From positions 64,001 to 128,000 of IMG/VR virus record IMGVR_UViG_3300047476_000982: a DNA stretch of 64,000 bases, one strand, 5' to 3'. Positions within the stretch are counted from its first letter, which is position 1. The number at the start of each line of letters is the position of its first letter. The position numbers were made by a program, and so were the translations under genes. This document shows, in pieces, positions 15,283-37,894 of this stretch. The stretch is from a virus. The notes beneath the pieces are model-generated. The model searched no databases. It was given only the letters and a program-made list of their open reading frames with translations, and had not been told where the DNA came from.

Positions 15283-16035
15283 ATGACTGACATACTATTA
15301 AATGAGGAAGAGGTTCTTTTAACTAAAAAAGGAGAACCTAGAAAGAGAAAGCCTAAAACGAAAAATAACTACTTTACAATAGAAACCGAAGAGGCTATTC
15401 TAAGATATAGAGCTGCAAAAAATCAAGCTGAGAGGAATCGAATTTACAATCAAGATATTCACTACGGGTTTTATAAGCTAGTAGAGAACATTATTCATAC
15501 ATTTAAGTTCTACTATACAGAGGTTGACAACATAGAGGATCTTAAGTATGAAGTAATATCTTTCCTCCTTCAAAAACTAGACCTTTATGATCAATCTAAA
15601 GGTAAAGCCTATTCTTATTTTGGTACAATTGCAAAAAGATATTTGATTATATATAACCAAAAGAATTATAAAAAACTTGTAGCCAAGGCAGATATTGGAG
15701 AACAGAATGATGATGACGCATTATTAAATAGCATCCTTGTAAAAGAACCAGAACCAGAGCTAGATAAACTAGATGTGGTCGAGCTTTTTATTAAATACGT
15801 AGATGACAATTTATTAGAACTATTCGACAAAACAGATGAAATAAAGGTAGCAGATGCTATCCTAGAAATATTCAAAAAGAGGGAAAATATAGATATTTTT
15901 AATAAAAAAGCCGTTTTTATATATGTTAAAGAAATGGCTGACACGCAATCAAATACCATTACGAAAGTAATTAAAAAGCTAAAAAACATCTACAGAACTA
16001 TCCTCAATCAATATCTTGAAAACAATGACTATTAA
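15283..16035 (+). CDS. Late-transcription sigma factor, T4 gp55-like
   Basis: NYFT..., FYKLVENII, EDLKYEVISFLLQKLDLYDQSKGKAYSYFGTIAKRYLI resembles sigma region 2 of gp55-family proteins; lies just upstream of the structural operon. Confidence 0.65.
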   Translation: MTDILLNEEEVLLTKKGEPRKRKPKTKNNYFTIETEEAILRYRAAKNQAERNRIYNQDIHYGFYKLVENIIHTFKFYYTEVDNIEDLKYEVISFLLQKLDLYDQSKGKAYSYFGTIAKRYLIIYNQKNYKKLVAKADIGEQNDDDALLNSILVKEPEPELDKLDVVELFIKYVDDNLLELFDKTDEIKVADAILEIFKKRENIDIFNKKAVFIYVKEMADTQSNTITKVIKKLKNIYRTILNQYLENNDY

Positions 16036-23389: not shown

Positions 23390-23727
23390 TGACAAATATT
23401 GAATTAACAAAAGAAATATATGGTTTAAATACATATACAAAAGCTATTGATACAGATTTTGAAGAACTTATACCTCAAGAAACTCCTGTAACTTCTAGCA
23501 TTGTAACTGTAGATGAATTTTTTACTTATTATAATGATTTGTTTTTTGATATTCCTGTATCTGGATCTATAAATTCTCATACATATTTAGTTGAAACAAG
23601 TCAACAATATATAGGAGGTTCTGTACTTGATGCTGAAAAGCAAGCGCTTATAGAAGAAATAAATTCTTTAAGACAGCAAATACTAGATATAAATCAATCA
23701 TTAAATGATATAAACAATATAGTATAA
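23389..23727 (+). CDS. Hypothetical structural-operon protein
   Basis: Packed ORF with C-terminal coiled coil. Confidence 0.5.
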   Translation: MTNIELTKEIYGLNTYTKAIDTDFEELIPQETPVTSSIVTVDEFFTYYNDLFFDIPVSGSINSHTYLVETSQQYIGGSVLDAEKQALIEEINSLRQQILDINQSLNDINNIV

Positions 23728-26700
23728 TGGAATTAGTTAATATTGAATATAGCGGAAGAGGAAATGACTTAGGACAGCTATCTTCACAAGATAGATCTTT
23801 AGTCACAACTAATTTTATAAATACTTCTTTTGGAAATCCTAGTGATTATTTAGAACTTTTTATTTATGATGAAAATAACTTATTATTATTTTCTGATTAT
23901 AATGCATTTGATTATTATCCTTACTTATTAAATAATCCTCAAAATAATACGTACTCAGCTCTTTCTTTAGATCCTGAAAAAGATTTAAAAAATAGAGGGT
24001 TTTTTAGAGGGGATTTAAATATAAAATATAATTTTTATACAAAATTATTTAATTCTTCATTTGGTACTTACTATTGGATAAAAGAAATTTCTCCATCAAG
24101 AAAAGAAATAAAATTAGCATCTCAAACATTAAGTAATGATATTATAAGAGGGGGATTTCTTTCATACCAATCTTATATTGCTACTAAAAATTATTATCCT
24201 GTATTTTATTTAAATTTTGGAGAAAATCAAATTGTAGCTGCAAACAATGTTGCATATACAGAAGATGATGATGGCTCTTACTTAATAATAAAATTATATG
24301 AACCTTTACCTATTGAGTTTGGATTAAAATCTCAATTATGGATAATAGATAAAGTAGCAGAGTCAGTTAGTTTTAATGTATCTATTACTGTTGAGGCAGA
24401 AAATATACAAGAATTAAATAGATTAAGAGGACCTAACTTTAATGTTCAAATAAATGATAAAAACGGTCAGACTACACCATATTATAATTATAATAACTTA
24501 TTAGCTAGCCCTGTAAGTTCTTCATATCAAAAATTATTAAGTTACTATCAAGATAGATCAGTAGCTATAAATGTAGATTACACTAACTTTTCAAACTTTA
24601 TACATTTCTCAAGTGCAGTAGAAAGAGTAAATAATTTTGTTTATAAAGTAGGATTAATAGAACAATATAAAAATCAACAATATAGCCAATCTTTAGTAGC
24701 TGGTGGATCTGGGAATGTTACTTACGCTGTGAATTCTATAGATGTTTCTCAACAAGCTATAGATAATATAATAGAGAAATTTGATACTTATGAATATTTT
24801 TTATATTTTAATTCTTCAAGTTGGGCATGGCCTAAATCAAACTCAACACAACCATATCAATTATATTCAGTAACATCTTCTCAAGTTAGTAATTTTTTAG
24901 GTTCTGAAAATGCAGTTCCTACAGCTACTACACAATCTTTATTATTTAGTGCATCTTATTATGATTCTACTAATAAAGATCTACTTCATAATTCTATTCC
25001 TCAGTACTTATTAGATGATCCAAATAATCAATCTTTCATTACCTTTATGGATATGATTGGTCAGCACTTTGATAATATTTGGATATACTATAAAGATGTT
25101 TCTAATAGGTATAATGCTACAAATAATCCTGATACAGGAATATCATTAGACGTTGTTGGAGACGCTTTAAGAGGATTCGGTATTCAATTATATACAAATT
25201 CAAACATATCAGATAACCTCTATTATACATTGTTTGGATTGAATACAGATGGATCTTTATTACCTCCGACTGGTTCAGAAAAAATAACTGCAATTGGAGG
25301 AAATTATGTTACTTCAAGTTTAGAAACACTTTCTGCGAAAGAAATTCAGCAGGAATTATATAAAAGACTCTATCATAATTTACCGTACTTACTAAAAAGT
25401 AAAGGTACTGAAAGGGGTGTTAAGGCACTTATAAGTACATTTGGTATTCCTGATAATATTTTAACTGTTAGAGAATTTGGAGGAACTCCAATAGATTCTG
25501 TAGACGGTATATTTGATTTAGATTCTTCTGCTTATAAAGTTACTATTGTAACAGGAAGTAGTGGAAATGTTACTGGTAGTTTAACACTATCGTCATCATT
25601 ATTACATCCTGAAGCAAGTTTACAGTATTATCAAAATATTAATAGAATTAATACTACTAATATAGAAGTTGGATTTTCCCCAGCAGATACTATTAATGAC
25701 AATATAGTTTCATCTGAAGGATATTTTGATATAAACCAACTAATATCTTCTCCTGGATACCAATACTCTTCATCTTATTTGCCTCTTGATGATTTTAAAA
25801 ACACATACTTTAGTAATTATACTGAACCTAATAGTATTTGGGAGTATATAAGACTTATTAAGTTTTATAATAACTCTTTATTTAAAATGATTAAAGATTA
25901 TGTTCCTGCTAGATCAAATTTATCTACAGGCATAATAGTTAAATCTCATATGTTAGAGAGAAATAAATATGCTAGACATGAACCTAGTTCTAGTTTTAAT
26001 GATAATTACTCTCAATCTATAGATACTGCATTTATAAGTGGCTCATCTGCAGGATCTGTTATAGGATCTACTGCATTTACAGGAAGTATAATAACTCCAT
26101 CAGGATCTATACAATTTATAAGCTCAGATGGAATAGAAAAATATAATGGCGAATTTAGTGGTTCTACTATAATAGTTACAGATGGTCAAGCTCTTCCTCA
26201 ATTTGAAATATCACAACTTCCGTCTAGTTCTTTATATGTAACTTACTCATTAGGAGCACTTTATCAAAATGTTACACAATCTGTAAGATCTCAAATTCTT
26301 TTTGATTTAGATTATAATTCAGATCAAATAAAAGCAGTTAATTATGGAATAGTTACTAAATCTATGAATGATGCGCAAATAGATAATTATACAACATATA
26401 CTAATCCAAATAATCCTTATGCGTATGTTCAAGACTATAATTATAATTTAAAAAGATCTGTTATTCCTAGATATAGCGGATCTTATATACAAAGTGCACT
26501 ATATAATGTTTACACAGCAGGAGATATTTCTTATGGTAAAACAGCAACTATAGATAAGATAAAATATCAATATGCTTATTTAGTTGACATATATTCTGCG
26601 TCTTTTCAATTACCTCAAAGAGCTAACGCTCAAATTAAATATTTTATAGACAATAATGAAAATGTATTAGATTTAACTAAATTAAACACTAATATATTTA

Positions 26701-27824
26701 CTACTCAAAATGTATTTAAATCAGGAGAAACTTTAGACGTATCTTTATTTGATTACGATAATACAAATCCTTATATTCAAAAATTAACTAATAATAATAC
26801 ATTTACTATATATGAGGGTGGTTATAGATATAGTCCCACTCTATTTAATGTAGGAGGCAGTGGAAGTATGAATTATGTTTTAGACGAGCCTCTTCAAGTT
26901 GTTAGCTCAGTAACTGTGCCATCTACGACTCCTTTAAATCCTGGTGATACAAATTACTGGACTATAAATAATTCGGATTTAGATTTATATAAGCCTAATC
27001 CTTTTGCACCTTTAATACTATCTGTTACAGCAAGTTCTGTAGTAGGAGGTACTTCAACTGCAGCAGTAAATGTATCATTACAAATAAGAAATACATCGGC
27101 AAGAAATACTATTTATTATTCAGTTCCAGAATTTCAAATTCCATCTGGACTTTCTGTATATCAATTTAGTATAAATTTACCAAGTGGAGTATATTCTGAT
27201 TGGGTTGATGCAGATATAGTCGTTGTTAATAACTTATCAGAAGCTCAATTTAACCCAAATGGAGGAGGAACGGTTGACTCTGTAGAGTTTATAACAAGTG
27301 TAACAGATCAAGACACATGCTGGATTGCAATAGATCCAAGAAATATAAAAATGTCTCTTACGCAATCGGCATATTATGACGCTGGTTTTCTTTTCTCTGG
27401 TAGTTATCCAGGTATAGATACTCCTGTTTTTGATTTTACTTTAAATCAAATGGATTTATTAAGATTTTATAACACTGGAAGTGGATGGTCTATAAATTCT
27501 GAATATAGGGTGCTGTCCGTTCAACCATATATAGATTCGACTGGATCTTACTATAGTATAACTATTGATAGGGATCTTAATTTATCAGATACATCAGGAT
27601 CTTCTTATCCTGCAAAAATTTGTAAGTATATTATTTTAAAAAGATTACCAGATGAAACTAATGTTATATTAAATTATAATTTAGGAACTCCTATAACTCA
27701 AGACGGAGTGCTTTTCCCTCAATATATAGATCCTGTTGTAAGAGATAATTCTGGTAACGTGATTAAGTCATTAAGACAGCAAAATCTATTAGATCCAAAT
27801 ACAAATACATTAATTTTCCAATAA
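23727..27824 (+). CDS. Large baseplate wedge protein (gp7-like) with Ser/Thr-rich extensions
   Basis: FMDMIGQHFD...LPYLLKSKGTERGVKALISTFG (KGT motif of gp7/gpI-like wedge proteins); 1365 aa. Confidence 0.6.
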   Translation: MELVNIEYSGRGNDLGQLSSQDRSLVTTNFINTSFGNPSDYLELFIYDENNLLLFSDYNAFDYYPYLLNNPQNNTYSALSLDPEKDLKNRGFFRGDLNIKYNFYTKLFNSSFGTYYWIKEISPSRKEIKLASQTLSNDIIRGGFLSYQSYIATKNYYPVFYLNFGENQIVAANNVAYTEDDDGSYLIIKLYEPLPIEFGLKSQLWIIDKVAESVSFNVSITVEAENIQELNRLRGPNFNVQINDKNGQTTPYYNYNNLLASPVSSSYQKLLSYYQDRSVAINVDYTNFSNFIHFSSAVERVNNFVYKVGLIEQYKNQQYSQSLVAGGSGNVTYAVNSIDVSQQAIDNIIEKFDTYEYFLYFNSSSWAWPKSNSTQPYQLYSVTSSQVSNFLGSENAVPTATTQSLLFSASYYDSTNKDLLHNSIPQYLLDDPNNQSFITFMDMIGQHFDNIWIYYKDVSNRYNATNNPDTGISLDVVGDALRGFGIQLYTNSNISDNLYYTLFGLNTDGSLLPPTGSEKITAIGGNYVTSSLETLSAKEIQQELYKRLYHNLPYLLKSKGTERGVKALISTFGIPDNILTVREFGGTPIDSVDGIFDLDSSAYKVTIVTGSSGNVTGSLTLSSSLLHPEASLQYYQNINRINTTNIEVGFSPADTINDNIVSSEGYFDINQLISSPGYQYSSSYLPLDDFKNTYFSNYTEPNSIWEYIRLIKFYNNSLFKMIKDYVPARSNLSTGIIVKSHMLERNKYARHEPSSSFNDNYSQSIDTAFISGSSAGSVIGSTAFTGSIITPSGSIQFISSDGIEKYNGEFSGSTIIVTDGQALPQFEISQLPSSSLYVTYSLGALYQNVTQSVRSQILFDLDYNSDQIKAVNYGIVTKSMNDAQIDNYTTYTNPNNPYAYVQDYNYNLKRSVIPRYSGSYIQSALYNVYTAGDISYGKTATIDKIKYQYAYLVDIYSASFQLPQRANAQIKYFIDNNENVLDLTKLNTNIFTTQNVFKSGETLDVSLFDYDNTNPYIQKLTNNNTFTIYEGGYRYSPTLFNVGGSGSMNYVLDEPLQVVSSVTVPSTTPLNPGDTNYWTINNSDLDLYKPNPFAPLILSVTASSVVGGTSTAAVNVSLQIRNTSARNTIYYSVPEFQIPSGLSVYQFSINLPSGVYSDWVDADIVVVNNLSEAQFNPNGGGTVDSVEFITSVTDQDTCWIAIDPRNIKMSLTQSAYYDAGFLFSGSYPGIDTPVFDFTLNQMDLLRFYNTGSGWSINSEYRVLSVQPYIDSTGSYYSITIDRDLNLSDTSGSSYPAKICKYIILKRLPDETNVILNYNLGTPITQDGVLFPQYIDPVVRDNSGNVIKSLRQQNLLDPNTNTLIFQ

Positions 27825-27851
27825 CACATATTTATTTAAAAGCCCATTTAT

Positions 27852-28511
27852 ATGTCATATTTAAGTAGCACATCGGTAGTAGTAGATGCAATTCTTACGG
27901 CAAAGGGTCGAGAACTCTTAGCAAGAAACGATGGATCTTTCAGAATTACTCAATTTAGTTTAGCCGACGACGAGGTAGACTATACACTTTATAATCCAAA
28001 CCATCCTTCAGGATCTGCATTTTACGGAGAAGCAATTGAAGCTATGCCAATAATTCAAGCGTATCCTAATGATACAGAAATCATGAAGTATAAATTAATT
28101 ACTCTTCCTAGAGGAACTGCCAAGATCCCTGTATTAGATTTGGGATATTCTGCAATAACTATAAAACAAGGTGCTTCTTTAGCAATTACACCTCAAACAT
28201 TAAATTATTTAGGCGCAACATCTACATTTGAACAATCAGGATATGTAGCTACTATAGGAGATGTAAGAACTATGAGCTCTTTCAATGGTGTTGGAATTAA
28301 CACTCCTGAAGCAACTTCTTTAAATGCTACTACAACTATTGGAACAAATGTAAGTAAAACAGTTATAGGAACAACAATTAACTTGACTGCTACTACTGTT
28401 AATACTTTGTTTGGTTCTAACTCTTCTTTATATACTACATTAGTAGTTGTAGGTCGTGATTCTGGAGCTAGAATTTCTATACCTGTAACAATTATAAAAG
28501 TAAACTCATAA
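27852..28511 (+). CDS. Tail/baseplate-associated structural protein
   Basis: VVVDAILTAKGRELLA...ITQFSLADDEVDY resembles tail-collar/fibre N-termini. Confidence 0.5.
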   Translation: MSYLSSTSVVVDAILTAKGRELLARNDGSFRITQFSLADDEVDYTLYNPNHPSGSAFYGEAIEAMPIIQAYPNDTEIMKYKLITLPRGTAKIPVLDLGYSAITIKQGASLAITPQTLNYLGATSTFEQSGYVATIGDVRTMSSFNGVGINTPEATSLNATTTIGTNVSKTVIGTTINLTATTVNTLFGSNSSLYTTLVVVGRDSGARISIPVTIIKVNS

Positions 28512-28522
28512 TATATTAACAC

Positions 28523-29557
28523 ATGTCATTTACTAGATTAGACTCAACCGATTTTGTAGTATCATCAGATTCAGTTGTAGCACCAGCTTGGAGCAATAAT
28601 GTAACAGAATTAACTGCTTTTTATACCGCAAATCCTGCTACTACAGGTAGTTATTACATAGATATATATGATGGGAATACAAGTTCTCCATCTGCATCAA
28701 TTCAATTTTCAGTAGCATACGGTCATTATGCAGGATCAGGTTCTGCTCCATTAAATTCTTTAGTTACAGGCATCAGTCCTTCTAGAATTACTTTTGGTCA
28801 GTATAGAAATTTAATATATGGAGATGCAGAATCTCCTGTAAATTTTGGTAGTGGAAATACAAATTCTCCTGATTTAGTTGCTATTCAAATAGATAGAAAC
28901 AAATATAAAGAAAGTTTATTCCCTGGTACTTTTAATCTTGCATTATCTTCTGGTGGGTTTAAAATTTTTCTTACTGATGATTCTAATGATGTTAGCACAG
29001 TAACTTATTTAGATGGAGGAAGAGTATTTAATGTAGTATCTGGATCTAATGGTACTGCTCAAAATAGTCCTTTATTATCAGGAGCTTCAGCAAAAGGATA
29101 TACTGTTTCTGGAAGTTACGGATTATTTTTACCTGATATTGGATTGATCTTACTTAATCCAAGAGCCTTATCTTTAGCTAATAATGCTGGCGGATTAAAT
29201 ATTAATTTTAGTACAACTAATACAACTGCTGGTTCTACAACTAATCATAATTTAATTTATACAATTATAAATTCTGGGGCTTCATTTAAATTAAATTCTC
29301 AAGAAACCATATCATCAGATTATATTTTTGTTAGAATTAAAAATGGTGATTATAATTACACTACTAATCCATCATTTATTACAGGTTCTACGGGAGCTTT
29401 GATATATTCTAATTTTATTAATAGTCCTCAAACTTATCCAACTAGCGTAGGTTTGTACAATGATAATAATGAATTACTAGCTGTAGCTAAAATGTCAAAA
29501 CCTCTTACAAAAGACTTTACTAAAGAAGCATTAATAAGAGTTAAATTAGATTGGTAG
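28523..29557 (+). CDS. Tail/baseplate structural protein (intact paralog of split gene 29581+35429)
   Basis: C-terminal YNYTTNPSF...TSVGLYNDNNELLAVAKMSKP motif typical of tail-collar-like domains. Confidence 0.6.
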   Translation: MSFTRLDSTDFVVSSDSVVAPAWSNNVTELTAFYTANPATTGSYYIDIYDGNTSSPSASIQFSVAYGHYAGSGSAPLNSLVTGISPSRITFGQYRNLIYGDAESPVNFGSGNTNSPDLVAIQIDRNKYKESLFPGTFNLALSSGGFKIFLTDDSNDVSTVTYLDGGRVFNVVSGSNGTAQNSPLLSGASAKGYTVSGSYGLFLPDIGLILLNPRALSLANNAGGLNINFSTTNTTAGSTTNHNLIYTIINSGASFKLNSQETISSDYIFVRIKNGDYNYTTNPSFITGSTGALIYSNFINSPQTYPTSVGLYNDNNELLAVAKMSKPLTKDFTKEALIRVKLDW

Positions 29558-29580
29558 TAAAATACCTTAACAGTTTATAA

Positions 29581-32145
29581 ATGGGATTATCAAAAAACAC
29601 TCTTGATAGATCAGATATTTCTACTTATCCTATTAAGTTAAAATATTCTGCTTCTTACTCAAGTTCTACTGCCATTAATTATGGAATTACAGCAAATAGA
29701 GGAATTAATACTTCTTTTGATGTAGATGGTAGAGATTTTTTAGTTTATAAACTAGCTAAGCAATTATACTATAATTCTTATATAACTGGAGCTTTAAACA
29801 ACTCTAGTAGTATATGGGATGATAATTTACAATCAACAGCTGCATCAGGAACTTTTGATGACGATTTTAGATTTTTTCCAACTGGATCTGGTGATGAGAT
29901 AACAGTGCTTTGTATACCTTCTATAGTTTTTGGACAAAATATATCTAAGACTACTTTTAGAATATCATCTGCTAATTATAATCTTATAGATGATGGTAAT
30001 GGTAATGTAATAGATACTGATAATGGAAATGTACATGTAGGTAATGTATTATATAGACAGGGAATTTCAGTTATTACTAATCCTGATTATAGATATGCTT
30101 TAATTGAAGCAATTCCAACTACAACAACTACAACTACAACTAGTACAACTAGTACAACAACTACTGTGGCTCCAACTACTACTAGTACAACAACTAGTAC
30201 AACTACTGCTGCCGCAGCATCTATATTATGGGAAAATACTGAATTAGTAAGTCCTTTTATAGATAGTGACTTATTTATAAATGATGATGGCGCAAATATA
30301 GTTGCTGAATATGTTGATAATACTGGAACATTTAATGCATCTGCTGGAAGCTCTATTTATTCACAACAGAATTCAATGGGCGGAACTATAGGTAACTATA
30401 GATTATATGTAAGAAATTTAACTGATTCTATAACATTATATGATAATACATCAACTGCTGGATCATTACCCTCTACTGTAAATAGCTACACTTTTACAGC
30501 AGTATCAGGTAAGTCATACTATGTAAGTGCTTCGGTTTCAGAAATTCCTACAACTACTACAACTACAACTAGTACAACAACCGCGGCTCCAACTACAACT
30601 ACAACTAGTACAACAACTAGTACGACAACAGCAGCTCCAACAACAACTAGTACAACTACTGTTGCCCCAACTACTACTAGCACAACAACTAGTACTACAA
30701 CTGTAGAACCAACTACTAGTACAACAACTAGTACAACTACGGCTGCGCCAACTACTAGTACAACTACGGCTGCGCCAACTACAACTACTACTAGTACAAC
30801 AACTAGTACTACAACTGTAGAACCAACTACTAGTACGACGACAACTAGTACTACAGAAGCACCTACAACTACTAGTACGACAACTAGTACAACTACGGCT
30901 GCGCCAACTACTAGTACGACAACTAGTACAACGACCGTAGCTCTAACTACAACTACAACTAGTACAACTACAAGTACAACTACAGAAATTCCAACTACTA
31001 GTACAACAACTAGTACGACAACTGCAGGACCAACTTGTTGTTATCAATATGAAATAACTAATTATTATACAACATCTAAAACAATATTCTATACAGATTG
31101 TAATGGAACTCCATCTTCTATTTCTGCTCCTGGTAACGGACTTCAAACTTATATAAGTTGCGCGATTGAAGGAAGCATTAGTTTCTCTGAAACTCCTTGT
31201 GATGGTGGAAGTTCTGATTGTATAGCAGTAGTTCAAGCTAACGAACCTTGCGGAGGGTGCGTAAGTACCACAACTACAACCAGCACAACAACTGCAGCTC
31301 CTACAAGTACAACTACTAGTACAACTACAATAGCACCAACAACAACTAGTACAACTACAAGTACAACTACTGTAGAACCATGTGCGGTATGCGGAGATAT
31401 AATTAACGGATCTTATTCTGGTTTAGACTTTACTACTCAAACAAAATGTTTAGACTTAACATCAGCAATTAATGGAGGACAAATTACACTATCATACGAT
31501 GCTATAGATAGACCTAATAGATTTAATATTTATGAAGTTGTTGGTGGAACATTAGTTGCTACTAGTGGTTGGGTTGGATCACCATCATCTACTCCTGGTC
31601 CTTGGAATCCTCCTGGACCTGGAACTGGTACGTTCTCATTTATTTATGATAATACTAAGACTTATGAACTTAGAGTAGATATTGCAGCAGATACTATTAG
31701 TGATACTTGGTCTATTTCAATAACTTGTGGACCTGTACCTACAACTACAACGACAACAACAACTAGTACAACAACTAGTACAACTACTATTGCCCCAACT
31801 ACTACTAGCACAACAACTAGTACGACAACTGTAGAACCAACAACAACAAGCACAACTACGTCAACTACAACTATAGCATGTTATGAATATGTAGCAACAG
31901 CAGATCAAACAGATATAGATAATTCAGATAATGGAACTGTTTATTTTGAATACACTGATTGTGACGGAATAACTCAAACATTATCTAGAGGTACAACCAT
32001 TCCTAGCGATCCTATTTGTGCAAGAAATACTGGAACTGTTTACATATTAGTAGGAGGAAATCAATCTGCAGCTGCTGGTAGTTTATGGAGTGGAGGAATA
32101 ATACAATGCAATCCTGGTGGAGGTGGAGGTGGAGAAACTCCATAA
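29581..32145 (+). CDS. Structural-protein N-terminal half fused to mucin-like Thr-rich stalk with Cys-containing globular domains (tail fibre-like)
   Basis: First ~175 aa parallel 28523-29557; then four poly-Thr/STT/APT blocks separated by globular segments, two with YTDCxG motifs. Confidence 0.7.
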   Translation: MGLSKNTLDRSDISTYPIKLKYSASYSSSTAINYGITANRGINTSFDVDGRDFLVYKLAKQLYYNSYITGALNNSSSIWDDNLQSTAASGTFDDDFRFFPTGSGDEITVLCIPSIVFGQNISKTTFRISSANYNLIDDGNGNVIDTDNGNVHVGNVLYRQGISVITNPDYRYALIEAIPTTTTTTTTSTTSTTTTVAPTTTSTTTSTTTAAAASILWENTELVSPFIDSDLFINDDGANIVAEYVDNTGTFNASAGSSIYSQQNSMGGTIGNYRLYVRNLTDSITLYDNTSTAGSLPSTVNSYTFTAVSGKSYYVSASVSEIPTTTTTTTSTTTAAPTTTTTSTTTSTTTAAPTTTSTTTVAPTTTSTTTSTTTVEPTTSTTTSTTTAAPTTSTTTAAPTTTTTSTTTSTTTVEPTTSTTTTSTTEAPTTTSTTTSTTTAAPTTSTTTSTTTVALTTTTTSTTTSTTTEIPTTSTTTSTTTAGPTCCYQYEITNYYTTSKTIFYTDCNGTPSSISAPGNGLQTYISCAIEGSISFSETPCDGGSSDCIAVVQANEPCGGCVSTTTTTSTTTAAPTSTTTSTTTIAPTTTSTTTSTTTVEPCAVCGDIINGSYSGLDFTTQTKCLDLTSAINGGQITLSYDAIDRPNRFNIYEVVGGTLVATSGWVGSPSSTPGPWNPPGPGTGTFSFIYDNTKTYELRVDIAADTISDTWSISITCGPVPTTTTTTTTSTTTSTTTIAPTTTSTTTSTTTVEPTTTSTTTSTTTIACYEYVATADQTDIDNSDNGTVYFEYTDCDGITQTLSRGTTIPSDPICARNTGTVYILVGGNQSAAAGSLWSGGIIQCNPGGGGGGETP
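30117..31875 (+). repeat. In-frame low-complexity tandem repeats (ACTAGTACAAC/ACAACT units) encoding Thr tracts
   Basis: Blocks at about 30117-30210, 30547-31025, 31264-31375 and 31737-31875. Confidence 0.9.
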
Positions 32146-32180
32146 TTTTTAATTAATACTTAATAGATAATAAAATTGTT

Positions 32181-33137
32181 ATGAAAAATTTACGTTACAT
32201 TTGTGCTCAACCAAGATTAGTTTATTATGCTTGGCAAGTAGAAGTCATGATTAATAATTTCATTAAAAATGGAATTAACCCAAATAATATAGATATTTTA
32301 GTTGCTTGGAATCCTAATGATGGAACATCATCTAAAGAATCTATTGAAATGTGGGAAAAACTATCATCACATTATAATTTTGTCAGATTCTTTTTTTATG
32401 AAGATACTAGAGAAAAACCTATAAAATATATATCTTCTATAAGACCCAATATATTAAAACAACATTTTAAATTACATCCAGAATTACATGATGAAGTAAT
32501 ATTTTATCATGATTGTGATATACTATTTACTAAACAAGTAAATTGGAATAAATTTTTAAATGATAATATTTGGTACCTTAGTGATACTAATAGTTATATA
32601 AACTATGATTATATTATTTCAAAAGGAGCAGATGTTTATAATAAAATGTGTGAAATAATAGGAGTAGATCCTATTATTCCTAAATTAATGAATTCAAATT
32701 CTGGTGGTGCTCAATATATTTTAAAAAATATAGACTATGAATTTTGGGAAAAAGTAGAAAAAGATTCTGAGCAGTTATATTTTGAAATTACACAACTAAA
32801 TCAAATAAAAAAACAAGAAGATCCTAATTATCATGAACTTCAAATATGGTGTTCTGATATGTGGTCTCTTCTTTGGAATGGGTGGCTTAGAGGTAATGAA
32901 ACTAAAGTAGTAAAAGAAATGGATTTTAGTTGGGCTACAGATTTAGAAGAAAGATTTAATGAAACAAATATATTTCATAATGCAGGAATTACTTGCTCTT
33001 GCGGAGGTAAATTTTATAAAGCAAACTATAGAGATTCACTTCCATATAATTTAGATCTTAGAATAAAAGAAGGATCCGCAAGTTATAAGTACTATCAAGA
33101 AATTCAAGAAACTGCTAAAAAATCACCATTAATATGA
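32181..33137 (+). CDS. Putative glycosyltransferase (GT-A-like)
   Basis: IFYHDCDILF (DxD), GGAQY, WCSDMW motifs. Confidence 0.6.
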   Translation: MKNLRYICAQPRLVYYAWQVEVMINNFIKNGINPNNIDILVAWNPNDGTSSKESIEMWEKLSSHYNFVRFFFYEDTREKPIKYISSIRPNILKQHFKLHPELHDEVIFYHDCDILFTKQVNWNKFLNDNIWYLSDTNSYINYDYIISKGADVYNKMCEIIGVDPIIPKLMNSNSGGAQYILKNIDYEFWEKVEKDSEQLYFEITQLNQIKKQEDPNYHELQIWCSDMWSLLWNGWLRGNETKVVKEMDFSWATDLEERFNETNIFHNAGITCSCGGKFYKANYRDSLPYNLDLRIKEGSASYKYYQEIQETAKKSPLI

Positions 33138-33790
33138 CTATAAAAAATTATATAGAAGATTTAATATCTAAAGGAGTTTCAATAAATTGCATTTATGATA
33201 TAGGAGGGTGGATGGGTTATTGGACAGAAAATATGTCTAATGGTATTTTAAAAGAAAAAGAATTTATTATATTTGAAGCAAATCCATATTATGCAGATGC
33301 TTTATCTAAACTAGGAAAAAAAGTTTTTATAGATGTATTAAGTGATAAAAAAGGATTAGAAGTAGAATACTACGACGCACCTTTATCAGGAGAATCTTAT
33401 TATAAAGAAAATACAAATTATTACAAAGATCATATTCCTAAAAAAAGAATTACAAATACTTTAGACAGTATTATAGAAGAAAATAATTTAATATTACCAG
33501 ATTTTATTAAAATAGATACTCAAGGTTCTGAATTAGATATTTTAAAAGGGGGTATAAAAGCAATAAATAATGCTAAGGTAGTTTATACAGAATGCCCAAT
33601 AATAAAATATAATTTAGGAGCTCCTAATATTCAAGATTATTTAAACTTTTTTGATTATTTTGGTTTTTATCCAATGAATATTTTAGAAACACATTTTATG
33701 GATAATGTACTTGTTCAAATAGATATTGTGTTTATGAAAAAAGAATTAAAAAATAATTTATATGGAGAAAATAAAGCCATTTTACAATGA
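33134..33790 (+). CDS. FkbM-family SAM-dependent methyltransferase
   Basis: IYDIGGWMG, IFEANP, TLDS, FIKIDTQGSELDILKGG. Confidence 0.88.
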   Translation: MTIKNYIEDLISKGVSINCIYDIGGWMGYWTENMSNGILKEKEFIIFEANPYYADALSKLGKKVFIDVLSDKKGLEVEYYDAPLSGESYYKENTNYYKDHIPKKRITNTLDSIIEENNLILPDFIKIDTQGSELDILKGGIKAINNAKVVYTECPIIKYNLGAPNIQDYLNFFDYFGFYPMNILETHFMDNVLVQIDIVFMKKELKNNLYGENKAILQ

Positions 33791-34749
33791 TAAAAGAAAA
33801 TGATCAAAATATAATTTTTTATTGGGATGGACCTATTTCTGATTCTAGAAAAAAGATATTAGAAGATTGTTTGTATTCAACAAGAGTATTTAATCAAGAT
33901 AGGCCAATTTATTTAGTCTCTAATTGGATAAAAGAGTTAGATACGAGATATGATATTGAAATAGTAAATTGGAATGATACTTTTTTTGATGGTATTAATA
34001 TTCCAATATTAGATAAATATAAAGTAGCTAATTATAGAGAAATATCTGATCTAATGAGGATGGTGCTTTTATATCAATTTGGTGGAAGTTATATAGACAC
34101 AGATGATCTTTGTATAAATAAAATGACAGATTTAAAAAATTTAGTTTGCAGATCTTATGATCCTCATACATGTCATTATAATGGATTAAAACCAGAAGAT
34201 TGTATCCCAGGAAAATACAGAGAAATTAGAGGATATGATGAAATTTATATGTTTCCAAGAAATGATTGTTGGTTAAATTTTGAACCAAAAAGTAAATTTA
34301 TACAAGATATATTTTCAAATGAAAAATTTTTAAATTCTGAAAAAGTAATTTATATCGGAGACGGATTTTCTTGGCAGTCTTTAAGTTTAGAATCATGTTT
34401 AAAAAATATAGATAAAATAGGAGACGTATATAATTTAGGATTAACTCTACTTTATTTTTATGAAGATTTTGTATCGGCATCTTCATATTGGGATAGATGT
34501 AATTATGGTGGGGAAATGTGTGATATCTATAAAGAATTACCTAATTTAGATAACTATGAATGGGGATTTTATAAATGTAATAAAGAGACCGCTGAGAAAT
34601 TCTATAACAAGATAATACAAACCTATCCTTATATTTCTCATATGTGGTTACATAGTAAAGATATGAAAGAAGAATGGTTAAGAGATGAAATAGATGAAAT
34701 GTCAAGTTTATCTAATTGGATATATAAAATAGTTAAAGAAAAATTATGA
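33787..34749 (+). CDS. Glycosyltransferase, GT32/capsular-polysaccharide-synthesis-like
   Basis: IIFYWDG, ISDLMRMVLLYQFGGSYIDTD (DxD) signature. Confidence 0.8.
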   Translation: MIKENDQNIIFYWDGPISDSRKKILEDCLYSTRVFNQDRPIYLVSNWIKELDTRYDIEIVNWNDTFFDGINIPILDKYKVANYREISDLMRMVLLYQFGGSYIDTDDLCINKMTDLKNLVCRSYDPHTCHYNGLKPEDCIPGKYREIRGYDEIYMFPRNDCWLNFEPKSKFIQDIFSNEKFLNSEKVIYIGDGFSWQSLSLESCLKNIDKIGDVYNLGLTLLYFYEDFVSASSYWDRCNYGGEMCDIYKELPNLDNYEWGFYKCNKETAEKFYNKIIQTYPYISHMWLHSKDMKEEWLRDEIDEMSSLSNWIYKIVKEKL

Positions 34750-35426
34750 TATCTGTAGTAACACTAACGTATAAAAGAAAACATATTTTAGAAGAAGCAA
34801 TACAATCCTATCTTAATCAAGATTACGAAGGAGATTCAGAAATGCTTGTAATAAATGATTCACCAGACGTGCAGTATGTATTTGATCATCCTAAAGTAAG
34901 AATAATAAATTTTCCTACTAGATTTAGTTCTATAGGTAAAAAATTGCAATACGGTTTTCAACAAGCAAAAGGAGATTATTTATATAGATTAGATGATGAT
35001 GACTTATTATCTCCATGGGCTCTATCTATAGTAAATGAATATATAACAGAAAACCCAGGAAAAGATATTTACAGGTGCGCTCATCATTATTTTTTTACTA
35101 ATAATGAATTTACATCTATTAGTAGTAGTATAAATAACGGAAATTGTTATTCTAAAGATTTTATAAATAGAATAGAATTTCCTGAAGCTAGTGGAAATGA
35201 AGATAATACTATAACATTTTGGAGAGATGCCAATATCTATAACGGAGATAAAGGAAAATATTCTATGTTATATAGATGGGGAATGTATACTTATCATATT
35301 TCAGGTATGGGTAATTATGAAGATAATGATTATGTATTATCTAGAACAGATCAACTATGTGCAAAAGAAGAAGGGATTATAGAATTAAAACCCCATTTTA
35401 AGAATGACTATTACAAATATTTATAA
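34746..35426 (+). CDS. Glycosyltransferase family 2
   Basis: MISVVTLTYKR..ILEEAIQSYLNQDY, VINDS, GDYLYRLDDDD. Confidence 0.88.
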   Translation: MISVVTLTYKRKHILEEAIQSYLNQDYEGDSEMLVINDSPDVQYVFDHPKVRIINFPTRFSSIGKKLQYGFQQAKGDYLYRLDDDDLLSPWALSIVNEYITENPGKDIYRCAHHYFFTNNEFTSISSSINNGNCYSKDFINRIEFPEASGNEDNTITFWRDANIYNGDKGKYSMLYRWGMYTYHISGMGNYEDNDYVLSRTDQLCAKEEGIIELKPHFKNDYYKYL

Positions 35427-35428
35427 GT

Positions 35429-35728
35429 ATGCCATCTTATGCTCCATATACAATTCATTTAGTAGCTGAAACTACTGTATATCAAAACGAAGTTAGGTGT
35501 AGAGTAAAAGAAAATGATTTTAACTATACACAAAACCCTAGCGCAACAAAGGCAGGATCCACAGGTTCTTATATAGATGCCGTAACAGGTTCAGACTTCC
35601 ATCCATATACAACTACAGTAGGTTTATATAATGATAAAGATGAATTACTTGTAGTAGGAAAATTATCAAGGCCATATCCAATTCCGCCTAATACAGATAT
35701 GACTTTTATTATAAGGTGGGATAGTTAA
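35429..35728 (+). CDS. Detached C-terminal half of tail structural protein
   Basis: CRVKENDFNYTQNPS...TTVGLYNDKDELLVVGKLSRP aligns by eye with the C-terminus of 28523-29557. Confidence 0.75.
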   Translation: MPSYAPYTIHLVAETTVYQNEVRCRVKENDFNYTQNPSATKAGSTGSYIDAVTGSDFHPYTTTVGLYNDKDELLVVGKLSRPYPIPPNTDMTFIIRWDS

Positions 35729-35738
35729 AAAATAAAGT

Positions 35739-36194
35739 ATGAGAAAATGGTTATATTTCGATCCTCTAGGAGTTACTAGAGAGTTTAATTCAATAGAAGA
35801 CTTTCCCCCTAATACCGTAGGCTTTATATATAAGATTGTCAATCTAGTCAATGGCAAATTCTATATAGGTAGAAAGGTCCTTTTCAATAATACCAATAAA
35901 GCATTAACCAAGAAGGAGATCGCGGAATGGGACAAACCTGGGCGCGTCCCACGCAAAAGAAAGATAGTTAAAGAATCTGACTGGTTGTCATATCACGGAA
36001 GTAATAAGCTTCTTAATCAAGAAAGAAAAGAAGTTGGCGACGATATGTTTGCTAGAGAGATCTTACAATTATGCTACTCTAAAAAACAATTGACTTATTA
36101 TGAAGTGTGGTGGCAAATGCACTATAAAGTTCTTCATATAGATTCATATAACGATAACATCCAAGGAAGATTCTATAGAAAGGATGTAGAATAA
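35739..36194 (+). CDS. GIY-YIG family endonuclease (catalytic domain only)
   Basis: GFIYKIVNLVNGKFYIGRK, YHGS, YYE, YNDNI motifs. Confidence 0.8.
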   Translation: MRKWLYFDPLGVTREFNSIEDFPPNTVGFIYKIVNLVNGKFYIGRKVLFNNTNKALTKKEIAEWDKPGRVPRKRKIVKESDWLSYHGSNKLLNQERKEVGDDMFAREILQLCYSKKQLTYYEVWWQMHYKVLHIDSYNDNIQGRFYRKDVE

Positions 36195-36221
36195 AAAAAG
36201 CCCTGGCACTTGCCGAGGGCT
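36193..36221 (-). terminator. Intrinsic terminator between convergent operons
   Basis: AGCCCT-GGC-ACTT-GCC-G-AGGGCT hairpin; U7 tract follows on the minus strand. Confidence 0.75.
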
Positions 36222-36242
36222 ATATGTATGGGCCTGCAAAGG

Positions 36243-36482
36243 TTAATTCCAATCAATTATCTTATGTAAGGTATTTTTATCTATACCTGCCTTTAAAGCT
36301 TTAACAACAGCTTCTTCAAATTCAACCCTAGGGAAAGAACTTCCTCCTTCATCTGGGCCAATCTTATCTCCTGTAAGACCCGCTGCATCTAATTGATCAT
36401 TATCCATATAATCAAATTCTTCTGCATCAATTTCTTTTAGAAGAGGATTATTTGCTGTAAATTGTTTAAAGTTAAATGCCAT
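36243..36482 (-). CDS. Small acidic protein with FNFKQF..NN N-terminal motif
   Basis: MAFNFKQFTANNPLLKE start. Confidence 0.55.
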   Translation of the reverse strand: MAFNFKQFTANNPLLKEIDAEEFDYMDNDQLDAAGLTGDKIGPDEGGSSFPRVEFEEAVVKALKAGIDKNTLHKIIDWN

Positions 36483-36502
36483 GTTATGTTTTTTAATTTG
36501 TT

Positions 36503-37894
36503 TTAGCTATTAGCCCAAGCTTTCATTCTTGTATCTAAAGCAAGATTTTTTCCTCTGAACCTGATGAATTCTCCTCTACCCATAGCATCTATGATATCTG
36601 CTTTAGTATATTTTGTACCTGGCATTCCATCATCCGCGGTTACCATAAGAGTATCTCCCATTGGTTGTACATACAAAATACCATGTAGTTTACCTTGTTG
36701 GTCTCTAGCAGTCCATTTGAATTCTTCTCCTTCCATTTGAACACCAGATGAAGATACAGTTACTTCTTCTTTAAAAGATTTAAATCCTCTAATAGTATCT
36801 ACAACAAACTGTGCAATTTCTCTGCTGTCAAAACCATCGTCCATTAAACTTTTTATAGCAGATTTAATTTGGTTTCCACCTAAATCATCAAATCTATCAT
36901 AATCAGATGCATCATCATCGTCGTATTCCGATCCCTTATCTATTGAAGGAAATGGATCTACAGAATCATCAGTATACATAGATTCATTAGTATCCTGTTG
37001 AGATCCACCAACTTTATATTCAGCTTCTACTTTTTTAAGAACAGGGATCATATCTTGAGCATAGCTTTCAAAATCAGGATATGAAGGATCGCCTACAACT
37101 TGATGATCTTCTATCTGCTCACCATAATTTGATTGAAGTTCAACAGCTATTCCTTTTGCACCATCCCAATTAGGCGTTGCGTAAACAACAGCATCTTCAC
37201 TTGGTATATTATCATGTATCCAATAAAGAACTCCTAAGTGATCTTCATAATAACAAGTCCAACTACCAACTCTTTTACCATCTACAGAATCATTCATCCA
37301 ATCATTAGAATATATTTTCTCAGGCTTTTCAAGTTCTTGTACAGGGCTATCTTCTTTAACAGATTTGTTTTTTACTATATCAAAGAATAATACGTTCTTA
37401 GAATCAGTATCAAAATCATCATCTTTAGTAACACTTTGAGGATCTATTTGCCAACCAGGGAATTTTGTTTGAAGTAAATTTTTAATATCAGTAAAAGCAG
37501 CTTTACTTACTTTACTTTCAATAGAAATTGCAATTCCACCGTCCTCAACAATTTTATTACCTATCCTTGCTACAGTTGGTGCAATTCTTACATTCTCATA
37601 TTCCTCTTGATCAGGTCTAGCTTTTTTATATCCGTATTTCTTTTGAATAGCAAATAGCTTTGACATCAAACTATCTTTATCATCTTTACCTGCTTTTTCT
37701 TCTACAGGACTGTCTTGCACAAATTCATCACCAAAGCCATCCAACTTATGTTCTGGACCTTCATACGGAATTTCTGTATCTAACTTTGTTTCCTCTTCTT
37801 CTTTCAAACTGTGCAAATCTACGTAGGCACCAAGAATAGCATGAGAACCAAGGTGATTTTCTTTTAAATACTTTGCAATGTTAAAATCTTTCAT
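36503..37894 (-). CDS. Acidic modular protein with FNxxKYLxEN N-terminal motif
   Basis: MKDFNIAKYLKENHLG; preceded by ATATTTAT at 37914-37921. Confidence 0.6.
   Translation of the reverse strand: MKDFNIAKYLKENHLGSHAILGAYVDLHSLKEEEETKLDTEIPYEGPEHKLDGFGDEFVQDSPVEEKAGKDDKDSLMSKLFAIQKKYGYKKARPDQEEYENVRIAPTVARIGNKIVEDGGIAISIESKVSKAAFTDIKNLLQTKFPGWQIDPQSVTKDDDFDTDSKNVLFFDIVKNKSVKEDSPVQELEKPEKIYSNDWMNDSVDGKRVGSWTCYYEDHLGVLYWIHDNIPSEDAVVYATPNWDGAKGIAVELQSNYGEQIEDHQVVGDPSYPDFESYAQDMIPVLKKVEAEYKVGGSQQDTNESMYTDDSVDPFPSIDKGSEYDDDDASDYDRFDDLGGNQIKSAIKSLMDDGFDSREIAQFVVDTIRGFKSFKEEVTVSSSGVQMEGEEFKWTARDQQGKLHGILYVQPMGDTLMVTADDGMPGTKYTKADIIDAMGRGEFIRFRGKNLALDTRMKAWANS

What the first reader, a model, noticed from the sequence alone, without database searches (positions are those of the whole stretch)
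29581..35728. Tail structural gene split in two by a ~5.3-kb mucin + glycosylation insert
Seen: the intact 344-aa gene (28523-29557) has an N-half (..LTDDSN..GLFLPDIGLILLNP) and a C-half (NYTTNPS..VGLYNDNNELLAVAKMSKP). Its paralog is broken. The N-half (LIDDGNG..GNVLYRQGISVITNP, 29581 to ~30110) runs into the Thr-rich region. The C-half (NYTQNPS..VGLYNDKDELLVVGKLSRP) is a separate 99-aa ORF at 35429, with its own ATATTTAT 5 nt upstream. Four glycan-modifying genes sit between. Inference: a fibre-plus-decoration cassette was inserted into a structural gene and both halves remain expressed, assembling as a split protein.
Basis: partly seen in the sequence, partly recalled or inferred. Interest (0 to 1): 0.82.

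Follow-up and report, generated by a model that had tools for sequence, protein, structure and literature searches.

The report
Split phage tail gene bracketing cargo
A phage baseplate-module gene is encoded in two separate pieces that are both conserved and are predicted to fit back together, and the gap between them is a swap site that here holds a mucin-like fibre and sugar-adding enzymes.

Summary
Gene B, next to its 344-aa paralog A, is split. Its N-domain (residues 1-176 of the 854-aa ORF) runs into Thr-rich stalks. Its C-domain is a 99-aa ORF 5.3 kb downstream. Four genes lie between; three are recognisable transferases.

- **Uninterrupted orthologs exist:** Flavobacterium phage immuto gp165, and 269-305-aa ORFs in metagenomic relatives.
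- **The 99-aa ORF is functional:** median dN/dS 0.09, and a conserved ATATTTAT box sits before its start codon.
- **The halves probably reassemble:** the complex model supports binding (ipSAE 0.81, best control 0.10). The first ~26 residues of the C-piece dock as a strand on the N-domain.
- **It is not a misassembly:** an independent metagenome contig is collinear across both junctions.

This is not a one-off cassette insertion. In more than 100 related loci, B is intact, split with adjacent halves, or split around 0-14 kb of variable cargo, and the state changed at least 5 times. The C-piece always sits at the right edge, usually before a GIY-YIG nuclease gene.

Thr-rich stalks occur only in split forms, always together with the uncharacterised 318-aa lead cargo gene. 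The fold has no solved relative. This is a new variant of the "genes-in-pieces" arrangement, here affecting a structural protein.

The parts
28523..29557 (+). Paralog A, intact 344-aa baseplate-module protein with the shared C-domain (residues ~250-343)
   Evidence: 48% identical to immuto gp164. Conserved next to B in all fetched relatives.
29581..30108 (+). Gene B N-domain (residues 1-176 of the 854-aa ORF)
   Evidence: Matches the N-domain HMM at E=2e-76. Colinear with residues 1-170 of intact 269-aa orthologs and with immuto gp165 residues 62-234.
30109..32145 (+). Fibre extension fused to the N-domain. Thr-rich stalks at residues 179-210, 323-484, 561-600 and 718-765, alternating with globular and Cys-rich modules.
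   Evidence: Composition scan. Thr-rich tracts occur only on split N-ORFs.
32181..33137 (+). Lead cargo gene, 318 aa, phrog_4417, function unknown; inferred initiating O-glycosyltransferase
   Evidence: PHROG E=4e-59. No Pfam, NCBIfam or PDB hit. First cargo gene in nearly all split+cargo loci. Co-occurs 16/16 against 0/49 with Thr-rich stalks.
33134..33790 (+). FkbM-type methyltransferase
   Evidence: PF05050, E=1.9e-11.
33787..34749 (+). Glycosyltransferase with DXD sugar-binding region
   Evidence: PF04488, E=3.3e-9.
34746..35426 (+). Family 2 glycosyltransferase
   Evidence: PF00535, E=2.2e-15.
35417..35424 (+). ATATTTAT box, a conserved gene-start signal (promoter-like) that travels with the C-piece
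   Evidence: Found at -9 to -15 before the C-ORF ATG in most split+cargo loci examined (~20 of 24 distinct upstream contexts), with unrelated upstream genes; absent in split-adjacent loci. Positional bias in the window: 12 of 23 copies against 6% for controls.
35429..35728 (+). Gene B C-piece, 99 aa: docking strand (residues ~5-26) plus the conserved C-domain
   Evidence: E=2e-26 to immuto gp165 residues 241-356. Median dN/dS 0.093. Predicted to bind the N-domain.
35739..36194 (+). GIY-YIG (SegE-like) nuclease gene; fixed right-hand neighbour and end of the + strand operon
   Evidence: PF19835, E=8e-26. Directly follows the C-domain in 82 of 98 loci.

Best explanation
Gene B is the last, host-range-variable gene of the baseplate module in a freshwater myophage distantly related to Flavobacterium phage immuto. 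The family plan is a conserved N-domain (~175 aa), a variable middle, and a conserved ~95-aa C-domain whose first long beta-strand folds back onto the N-domain, so that N and C form one structural unit. In this lineage the gene has undergone fission just before that strand. The N-domain ORF continues into a 680-aa fibre of Thr-rich stalks and Cys-rich modules. The strand plus C-domain is a separate 99-aa protein, made from its own ATATTTAT-preceded start. The two chains reassemble non-covalently by strand complementation. This leaves the N-piece with a free C-terminus that can carry an extended stalk that does not loop back. The space between the two ORFs has become a landing pad for cargo. 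Here the cargo is a four-gene transferase cassette that most likely O-glycosylates and methylates the Thr-rich stalks. Shown here: the split, the orthology, the selection, the modular variation and the co-occurrences. Predicted: the binding. Inferred: virion location, glycosylation of the stalk, and promoter function of the box.
For: Colinear match of both pieces to single ORFs: immuto gp165 and 26 distinct intact ORFs in IMG/VR relatives. The split falls in a short linker after the conserved QGIxVITN motif and before a long strand, residues 177-196 of the AF2 model of an intact ortholog. dN/dS medians: C-piece 0.093, A 0.172, N-domain 0.239. Complex prediction supports binding: ipSAE 0.81/0.82/0.80, best of 3 controls 0.10. 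That mark was reached by 58 of 80 solved complexes and 2 of 110 mismatched pairs; the counts are only rough because my own alignments were used. The runs agree in at least 93% of contacts, and the partner's pLDDT is at least 61. C residues 1-26 contact N residues 12-29, 110-133 and 169-176. No solved relative exists that could explain the pass by memory. In the Atlas, 601-832-aa proteins with a lectin insert superpose on both domains of the 269-aa model at TM 0.71-0.72, so N and C form one unit whatever lies between them. The ATATTTAT box is conserved before the C-ORF across different upstream genes and is start-associated in the window. Thr-rich stalks occur in 0 of 96 single-chain representatives, 0 of 26 intact ORFs and 16 of 49 split N-ORFs. 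Thr-rich stalks and the 318-aa gene co-occur 16/16 against 0/49, and all 5 independent contrasts go the same way. Baseplate context: a gp6/J-like wedge gene upstream, and tail fibre and spike genes downstream of B in immuto.
Against: Binding is a model's confidence only, and halves of a split gene tend to pass such tests because intact relatives carry the same contacts. The fold of A and B matches nothing solved (best Z 5.0 and 3.5), so 'baseplate/fibre adaptor' rests on gene order. The C-domain was modelled with only moderate confidence (pLDDT 60-78 in B, below 45 in A). Four relatives carry the 318-aa gene with a bare 176-aa N ORF and no Thr-rich tract, so the stalk may not be its only substrate. 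The independent-pair test cannot reach significance (p about 0.06). Single-chain forms tolerate middles of up to ~1,600 aa, so length alone does not force a split.
Confidence: 0.65

Rival explanations
1. The 99-aa protein is a functional, independent module (a general baseplate docking or assembly unit) that does not specifically pair with the N-piece of B. It may serve other tail proteins, or occupy its own site next to paralog A.
For: The C-domain is a widespread terminal module: 2,976 cluster representatives, on proteins of 100-1,863 aa. It is shared with A and with five proteins of Microcystis phage Mel-JY01. In large-cargo loci the C-ORF directly follows a long fibre-like ORF, ~14 kb from the N-ORF. 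A's own C-domain is poorly modelled as a monomer, which hints at oligomeric or hetero contacts.
Against: In the top 150 hits, 96 carry the B-type N-domain in the same chain. In the window, the only ORF with an N-domain but no C-domain is the 854-aa ORF. The predicted interface uses exactly the strand that follows the split point. The interface residues are conserved in both split and intact forms.
Confidence: 0.2
2. One reading: one 5.3-kb fibre-plus-glycosylation cassette was inserted in a single event into a previously intact structural gene.
For: The interval 30109-35428 is about 5.3 kb and differs in composition from its flanks (GC 0.37, then 0.26). L005 carries the same four-gene cassette with a similar fibre.
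Against: Relatives show every intermediate. These include N176 + 92 nt + C99 (L091, itself a cargo-deletion derivative), N176 + transferases without a fibre (L003, L004, L006, L013), and long N-fusions with the C ORF adjacent and no transferases (L019, L040, L068). No flanking direct repeats were found. Left and right flanks have different divergence (75-84% against 88-92%), which indicates recombination breakpoints inside the region rather than one insertion.
Confidence: 0.1
3. The 99-aa ORF is a decaying remnant left by a tail-fibre module replacement, or the split is an assembly artefact.
For: C-terminal remnants are common after fibre-module swaps, and the window comes from an uncultured source.
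Against: Median omega is 0.093 over 64 pairs. The ORF is intact, with a conserved ATG-CC start, in more than 60 loci. Its identity to the window is 71-92%, higher than for the N-domain. An independent contig is collinear across both junctions at 75-88% identity.
Confidence: 0.03

Closest known systems
Genes-in-pieces of T4-like phages: Aeh1 nrdA split by mobE, T4 topoisomerase genes 39/60 with mobA, phage 25 DNA polymerase 43A/43B (review PMC2988022)
   Same: A gene that is contiguous in related phages is split into two separately translated ORFs. Both are retained and must reassemble non-covalently. A free-standing GIY-YIG/HNH-type nuclease gene is associated with the locus.
   Different: Those cases are enzymes split by the nuclease gene itself or by a short untranslated spacer. 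Here a virion-module structural protein is split. The nuclease gene lies downstream of both halves rather than between them. The gap holds 0-14 kb of variable cargo, and one half has been extended into a long fibre. The split state is widespread and recurrent rather than a single-phage oddity.
Flavobacterium phage vB_FspM_immuto gp165 (QQO92083.1, 357 aa, annotated hypothetical)
   Same: Uninterrupted ortholog in the same position directly after the A ortholog gp164. It aligns colinearly with both window pieces.
   Different: It is a single chain with no Thr-rich tract. Tail fibre and spike genes 166-169 lie between it and the GIY-YIG gene, whereas the window has none there.
Phage-encoded virion glycosylation in mycobacteriophages, where glycosyltransferase genes sit beside the structural genes they modify. 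Recalled from the literature; cited in passing by papers found, e.g. PMC11256854.
   Same: Transferase genes are embedded in the structural module next to a protein with a Ser/Thr-rich extension that is the presumed acceptor.
   Different: The host phylum and proteins are different. Here the acceptor is a mucin-like tail appendage and the cassette sits inside a split gene. Glycosylation is inferred, not shown.
Modular tail-fibre architecture with a constant N-terminal anchor and exchangeable distal parts (Mu/P1 S gene inversion, T-even gp37/gp38). Established knowledge, not tested here.
   Same: A conserved N-terminal attachment part carries hypervariable distal parts that are exchanged between phages.
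   Different: No invertase or alternative C-termini are present. Here a conserved C-terminal domain is also kept, but in trans.
Nuclease genes at boundaries of genetic exchange / HEG islands (Barth et al. 2023, PMC10448857)
   Same: A GIY-YIG gene sits at the edge of a mosaic region, and the flank next to it is the most conserved (88-92% against 75-84%).
   Different: The nuclease gene here is a near-universal fixed neighbour (82 of 98 loci) rather than sporadic. No cleavage or mobility evidence exists.

Membership tests
Genes-in-pieces (functional split gene in phage) | A contiguous single-ORF ortholog exists in related phages | tested here: met
   Immuto gp165, and 26 distinct intact ORFs of 269-591 aa.
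Genes-in-pieces (functional split gene in phage) | Both pieces are retained as intact ORFs under purifying selection | tested here: met
   Omega 0.093 for the C-piece and 0.239 for the N-domain.
Genes-in-pieces (functional split gene in phage) | The intervening DNA is a homing endonuclease gene or a short spacer | tested here: not met
   The intervening DNA is a fibre extension plus four transferase-type genes. The GIY-YIG gene lies downstream of the C-piece.
Genes-in-pieces (functional split gene in phage) | The pieces reassemble into a functional protein | tested here: inconclusive
   Prediction only: ipSAE 0.81 against a best control of 0.10. There is no biochemical test.
Fractured genes with split inteins (PMC2677866) | Intein N- and C-fragments at the break, and a nucleophile at the +1 extein position | tested here: not met
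   Bare N ORFs stop 6-8 residues after the conserved domain. The C ORF aligns to intact proteins from residue 3, which leaves no room for intein fragments.
Tail fibre assembly chaperones (Tfa/gp38 type) or C-terminal intramolecular chaperone (Peptidase_S74) | Sequence membership in the known chaperone families | tested here: inconclusive
   No Pfam, PHROG or NCBIfam hit for the 99-aa ORF. Absence of a hit does not exclude a chaperone-like role.
Phage virion glycosylation system | Glycosyltransferase genes adjacent to a structural gene that has a Ser/Thr-rich acceptor region | tested here: met
   PF04488 and PF00535 genes plus an FkbM methyltransferase lie next to a protein with ~280 residues of 70-85% Thr+Ser. 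The co-occurrence is 16/16 against 0/49.
Phage virion glycosylation system | A glycan is demonstrably attached to the virion protein | not testable with these tools
   This needs glycoprotein staining or mass spectrometry.
T4-type baseplate peripheral proteins (gp8/gp9/gp10 class) | Structural similarity to solved baseplate proteins | tested here: inconclusive
   Best matches are Z 5.0 for B and Z 3.5 for A (the latter to a phiKZ baseplate outer chain, tied with unrelated rows). BFVD gives weak 'baseplate wedge subunit' rows at E about 7e-4 with low TM.

The most novel reading that the evidence does not exclude
The two halves of gene B act as a conserved structural and genetic bracket that defines a programmable host-range locus. 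The N-domain and the strand-plus-C-domain snap together whatever lies between them. The C-piece carries its own late-type promoter, so cargo size does not affect its expression. The fixed GIY-YIG nuclease at the right edge drives exchange of the bracketed cassette between co-infecting phages. Within this system the abundant 318-aa family (about 2,900 relatives, no known domain) would be a new peptide O-glycosyltransferase dedicated to phage mucin-like stalks.
Probability: 0.2. Interest if true: 0.8.

Novelty: new variant of a known kind. Interest (0 to 1): 0.62.

Why it matters
Functional split genes in phages are known for a handful of enzymes. They are treated as curiosities caused by homing-endonuclease insertion.

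- **A different kind of split:** here a structural, host-range-determining tail protein is split in a whole clade of abundant freshwater phages. The break lies exactly before a docking strand, and both pieces are more constrained than their neighbours.
- **A design principle:** the family keeps the two ends that form the attachment unit and puts anything in between or on the freed chain end. That would explain how these phages swap lectin domains, fibres and glycosylation cassettes at one site.
- **Testable leads:** the work links a large uncharacterised protein family (phrog_4417) to Thr-rich stalks. It also identifies a conserved ATATTTAT start signal.
- **Practical use:** a naturally split, self-reassembling adaptor pair could serve as a scaffold for attaching new receptor-binding modules to phage tails.

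Tried and rejected
- **Direct comparison of A with the N-half:** BLASTP was not significant. Only profile-profile comparison links them.
- **Near-identical phage records:** megablast of 27000-37000 against phage records found none.
- **Fold identification:** Foldseek PDB and VIA-wide searches with models of B and A gave nothing above Z 5.0 and 3.5. PDB sequence-profile searches with the C-domain and with intact B gave 0 hits. BFVD and the Atlas returned only unnamed relatives or relatives with lectin inserts.
- **Family libraries:** Pfam, PHROGs and NCBIfam gave nothing for A, the N-domain or the C-piece.
- **The 318-aa gene:** a language-model lead to HPAT (PF23452) got no HMMER support in 20 homologs. 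There was no PDB hit, and all 2,922 relatives are unnamed.
- **Data not available:** There is therefore no read or RNA evidence.
no PHROG hit.
- **Transposon-type insertion:** no flanking direct repeats.
- **Terminators:** the count is not above shuffles, 4 against 2.7.
- **Split intein, ribosomal bypass or read-through producing one chain:** rejected. There is no room for intein fragments, the ORFs are in different frames, and they are 5.3 kb apart.
- **Remnant-pseudogene and misassembly readings:** rejected.


Full report
**What is there.** The + strand operon 13846-36194 is a myophage baseplate module. It contains a gp6/J-like wedge gene at 20411-22270 (TIGR02243 E=1e-24; phrog_6 E=3e-22). 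It ends with five elements:
- gene A (28523-29557, 344 aa);
- an 854-aa ORF (29581-32145);
- four ORFs (32181-35426);
- a 99-aa ORF (35429-35728);
- a SegE-like GIY-YIG gene (35739-36194, PF19835 E=8e-26).

The 99-aa ORF matches A's C-terminus (E=2e-15). In the window, only A and this ORF carry that C-domain, and only the 854-aa ORF carries the B-type N-domain.

**Orthology.** The closest cultured relative is Flavobacterium phage immuto, whose gp164 is 48% identical to A. Its next gene, gp165 (357 aa), is one ORF that aligns colinearly with both window pieces. Residues 62-126 and 201-234 match residues 54-167 of the 854-aa ORF (E=0.004 and 4e-4). Residues 241-356 match the whole 99-aa ORF (E=2e-26). 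IMG/VR relatives include 269-aa ORFs that amount to N 1-170 plus two residues plus C 3-99 (62% and 79% identity). The break lies in a short linker after the conserved QGIxVITN motif. It comes just before a long beta-strand, residues 177-196 in the AF2 model of an intact ortholog (pLDDT 75.5). A and B are paralogs over the C-domain and the distal part of the N-domain (hhalign 99.3%, E=8e-21). The first ~100 residues are not detectably related.

**Is the small ORF alive?** Across 12 split-form loci, median pairwise dN/dS is 0.093 for the C-piece, 0.172 for A, 0.239 for the N-domain and 0.159 for the lead cargo gene. The C-piece is 71-92% identical to the window's copy in loci where the N-domain is only 50-76% identical.

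The start context ATATTTAT(A)...ATG-CC is conserved at a fixed distance in most split-with-cargo loci examined (about 20 of 24 distinct upstream contexts). This holds although the upstream gene differs: GT2, radical-SAM/SPASM, unknown genes, or ~1,000-aa fibre-like ORFs. The box is absent where the C ORF directly abuts the N ORF stop. In the window the octamer is not over-represented. However, 12 of its 23 copies lie in sense orientation within 30 nt upstream of a gene start, against 6% pooled for all 56 composition-matched octamers, and it ranks first among them. So it is a real gene-start signal.

**Do the halves reassemble?** I ran the complex prediction with matched alignments of the N-domain (1-176) and the C-piece. 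It supports binding but does not show it.
- The score was 0.81, and the best of 3 controls was 0.10.
- That mark was reached by 58 of 80 solved complexes and 2 of 110 mismatched pairs. These counts are only rough here because my own alignments were used.
- The runs agree in at least 93% of contacts, and the partner's pLDDT is at least 61.
- The interface is C residues 1-26 (plus 66-67) against N residues 12-29, 110-133 and 169-176. This is the strand that follows the split point, docking onto the N-domain sheet.

Halves of a split gene tend to pass such tests because intact relatives carry the same contacts. No solved relative exists that could explain the pass by memory. Independently, Atlas models of 601-832-aa family members with Laminin-G inserts superpose on both domains of the 269-aa model (TM 0.71-0.72 over ~240 residues). 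N and C therefore form one unit whatever lies between them.

**Not an artefact.** L005, from a different metagenome, is collinear with 28500-30210 (75% identity). It also matches 31740-36300 in a single 4.57-kb alignment at 88% identity, which covers the end of the fibre, all four cargo genes, the C-piece and the GIY-YIG gene.

**The wider pattern.** In about 100 related loci, gene B always follows A and occurs in one of three states:
- **Intact:** 26 distinct ORFs of 269-591 aa.
- **Split, halves adjacent:** for example 211+101, 380+100 and 1021+101 aa.
- **Split, with cargo:** 1 to about 14 kb and up to ~10 genes lie between the halves.

The C-domain is followed directly by the GIY-YIG gene in 82 of 98 loci. 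On a tree of A, the basal immuto-like group is all intact and the split/intact state changes at least 7 times. On a tree of B itself it changes at least 5 times. Near-identical A genes flank different B states (L035 and L040). Left and right flanks also differ in divergence. Both facts indicate recombinational exchange. L091 (N176 + 92 nt + C99) keeps the 3' end of the radical-SAM cargo gene seen in L003 and L006, so it is a cargo-deletion derivative. No insertion scars flank the window's interval. The fibre extension, the transferase cassette and the split are therefore separable modules at a long-lived swap site. They are not one inserted cassette.

**How common is the family?** A profile of the C-domain finds 2,976 cluster representatives at E<=1e-3, almost always with the domain at the extreme C-terminus of proteins of 100-1,863 aa. 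Of the top 150:
- 96 have the B-type N-domain in the same chain (median 354 aa);
- 17 are stand-alone;
- 8 carry the domain at the N-terminus of unknown 310-445-aa proteins.

Long members contain ConA-like lectin domains, which fits an adhesin or fibre role.

**The mucin and glycosylation link.** The extension has four stalks of 70-85% Thr+Ser (about 280 residues). They alternate with globular and Cys-rich modules. Thr-rich tracts occur in 0 of 96 single-chain representatives, 0 of 26 intact ORFs and 16 of 49 split N-ORFs.

Among N-domain ORFs longer than 250 aa, all 16 with Thr-rich tracts have the 318-aa gene in the locus, and none of the 49 without such tracts do. Four bare 176-aa N ORFs also have the gene. 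Five phylogenetically independent contrasts all agree, at p about 0.06, which is the best that five pairs can reach. The 318-aa protein has no recognisable family. A weak HPAT lead was not confirmed. The other three cargo genes are an FkbM methyltransferase, a DXD glycosyltransferase and a GT2. Stalk O-glycosylation is the most economical reading, but it remains an inference.

**Mechanism proposed.** Fission before the docking strand frees the C-terminus of the N-domain. That end can then carry an extended, probably glycosylated stalk that does not have to return to the attachment unit. The strand plus C-domain is supplied in trans from its own start signal. The new intergenic space accepts cargo.

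**What remains unknown.** The fold has no solved relative. The position in the virion is therefore inferred from gene order alone. No expression data could be obtained.

**Comparison with known systems.** The closest known phenomenon is the genes-in-pieces arrangement of T4-like phages (PMC2988022). This locus differs in four ways: the protein is structural, the nuclease gene lies outside the break, the gap carries variable cargo, and the state is widespread and recurrent. It is not a split-intein 'fractured gene' (PMC2677866). The fixed GIY-YIG neighbour at the edge of a mosaic region recalls nuclease genes at exchange boundaries (PMC10448857), but no mobility evidence exists here.

**Earlier notes.** Other readers in this scan had already noted the mucin-like protein, its adjacent cassette and the ATATTTAT motif on this same stretch.

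Noticed in passing
window 35739-36194, and the corresponding position in L003-L126: A SegE-like GIY-YIG gene directly follows the C-domain in 82 of 98 related loci, whether B is intact or split. That is unusually fixed for a supposed homing endonuclease. Its best PHROG (phrog_447), and the immuto annotation, call it 'NAD synthetase', which looks like a misnomer.
   Followed up: partly
window, 23 sites, e.g. 16035, 19542, 27828, 35417 (+) and 6634, 11613, 37914 (-): ATATTTAT is the most start-associated of all 56 A3T5 octamers: 12 of 23 copies lie within 30 nt upstream of a start, in sense. It is a candidate phage-specific promoter or initiation signal. The neighbouring ORF 15283-16035, proposed elsewhere as gp55-like, has no PHROG hit.
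   Followed up: partly
L091:9378-10300: A bare split form (176-aa N ORF, 92-nt spacer, 99-aa C ORF). The spacer retains the 3' end of the radical-SAM cargo gene of L003 and L006, so this is a cargo-deletion derivative.
   Followed up: partly
L003:12567-13598; L030:3452-4858: Cargo in relatives includes a radical SAM + SPASM protein (PF04055 E=2e-12, PF13186 E=6e-9) and a Gly_rich_2 domain protein (PF21722 E=3e-28). The swap site therefore carries more than glycosyltransferases.
   Followed up: no
window 31033-31260 and 31876-32115 (residues 485-560 and 766-845 of the 854-aa ORF): Two Cys-rich modules share a YTDC(N/D)G core but are only weakly similar (E=0.009 over 27 aa). The terminal one recurs in about 10 related loci. 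No family was found.
   Followed up: partly
proteins P0039, P0073, P0079, P0094, P0104, P0107, P0108, P0139: Eight cluster representatives carry the C-domain at the N-terminus of 310-445-aa proteins with no Pfam domain. These may be fusions of the C-piece to something downstream, or gene-call merges.
   Followed up: no
window 28523-29557 (model mda3b54d1ec33): In paralog A the N-part (residues 30-260) is modelled at pLDDT about 90, but the C-domain falls below 45. In B the same domain reaches 60-78. This may be a sign that A's C-domain folds only in an oligomer or on a partner.
   Followed up: no
window 32129-32143: A weak terminator-like hairpin (6-bp stem followed by a T-rich tail) lies at the very end of the 854-aa ORF, before the transferase cassette. 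The terminator count in the region is not above shuffles.
   Followed up: no
window 23727-27824 and 27852-28511: The 1365-aa and 219-aa genes upstream of A are conserved in every relative but match no Pfam, PHROG or NCBIfam family.
   Followed up: no
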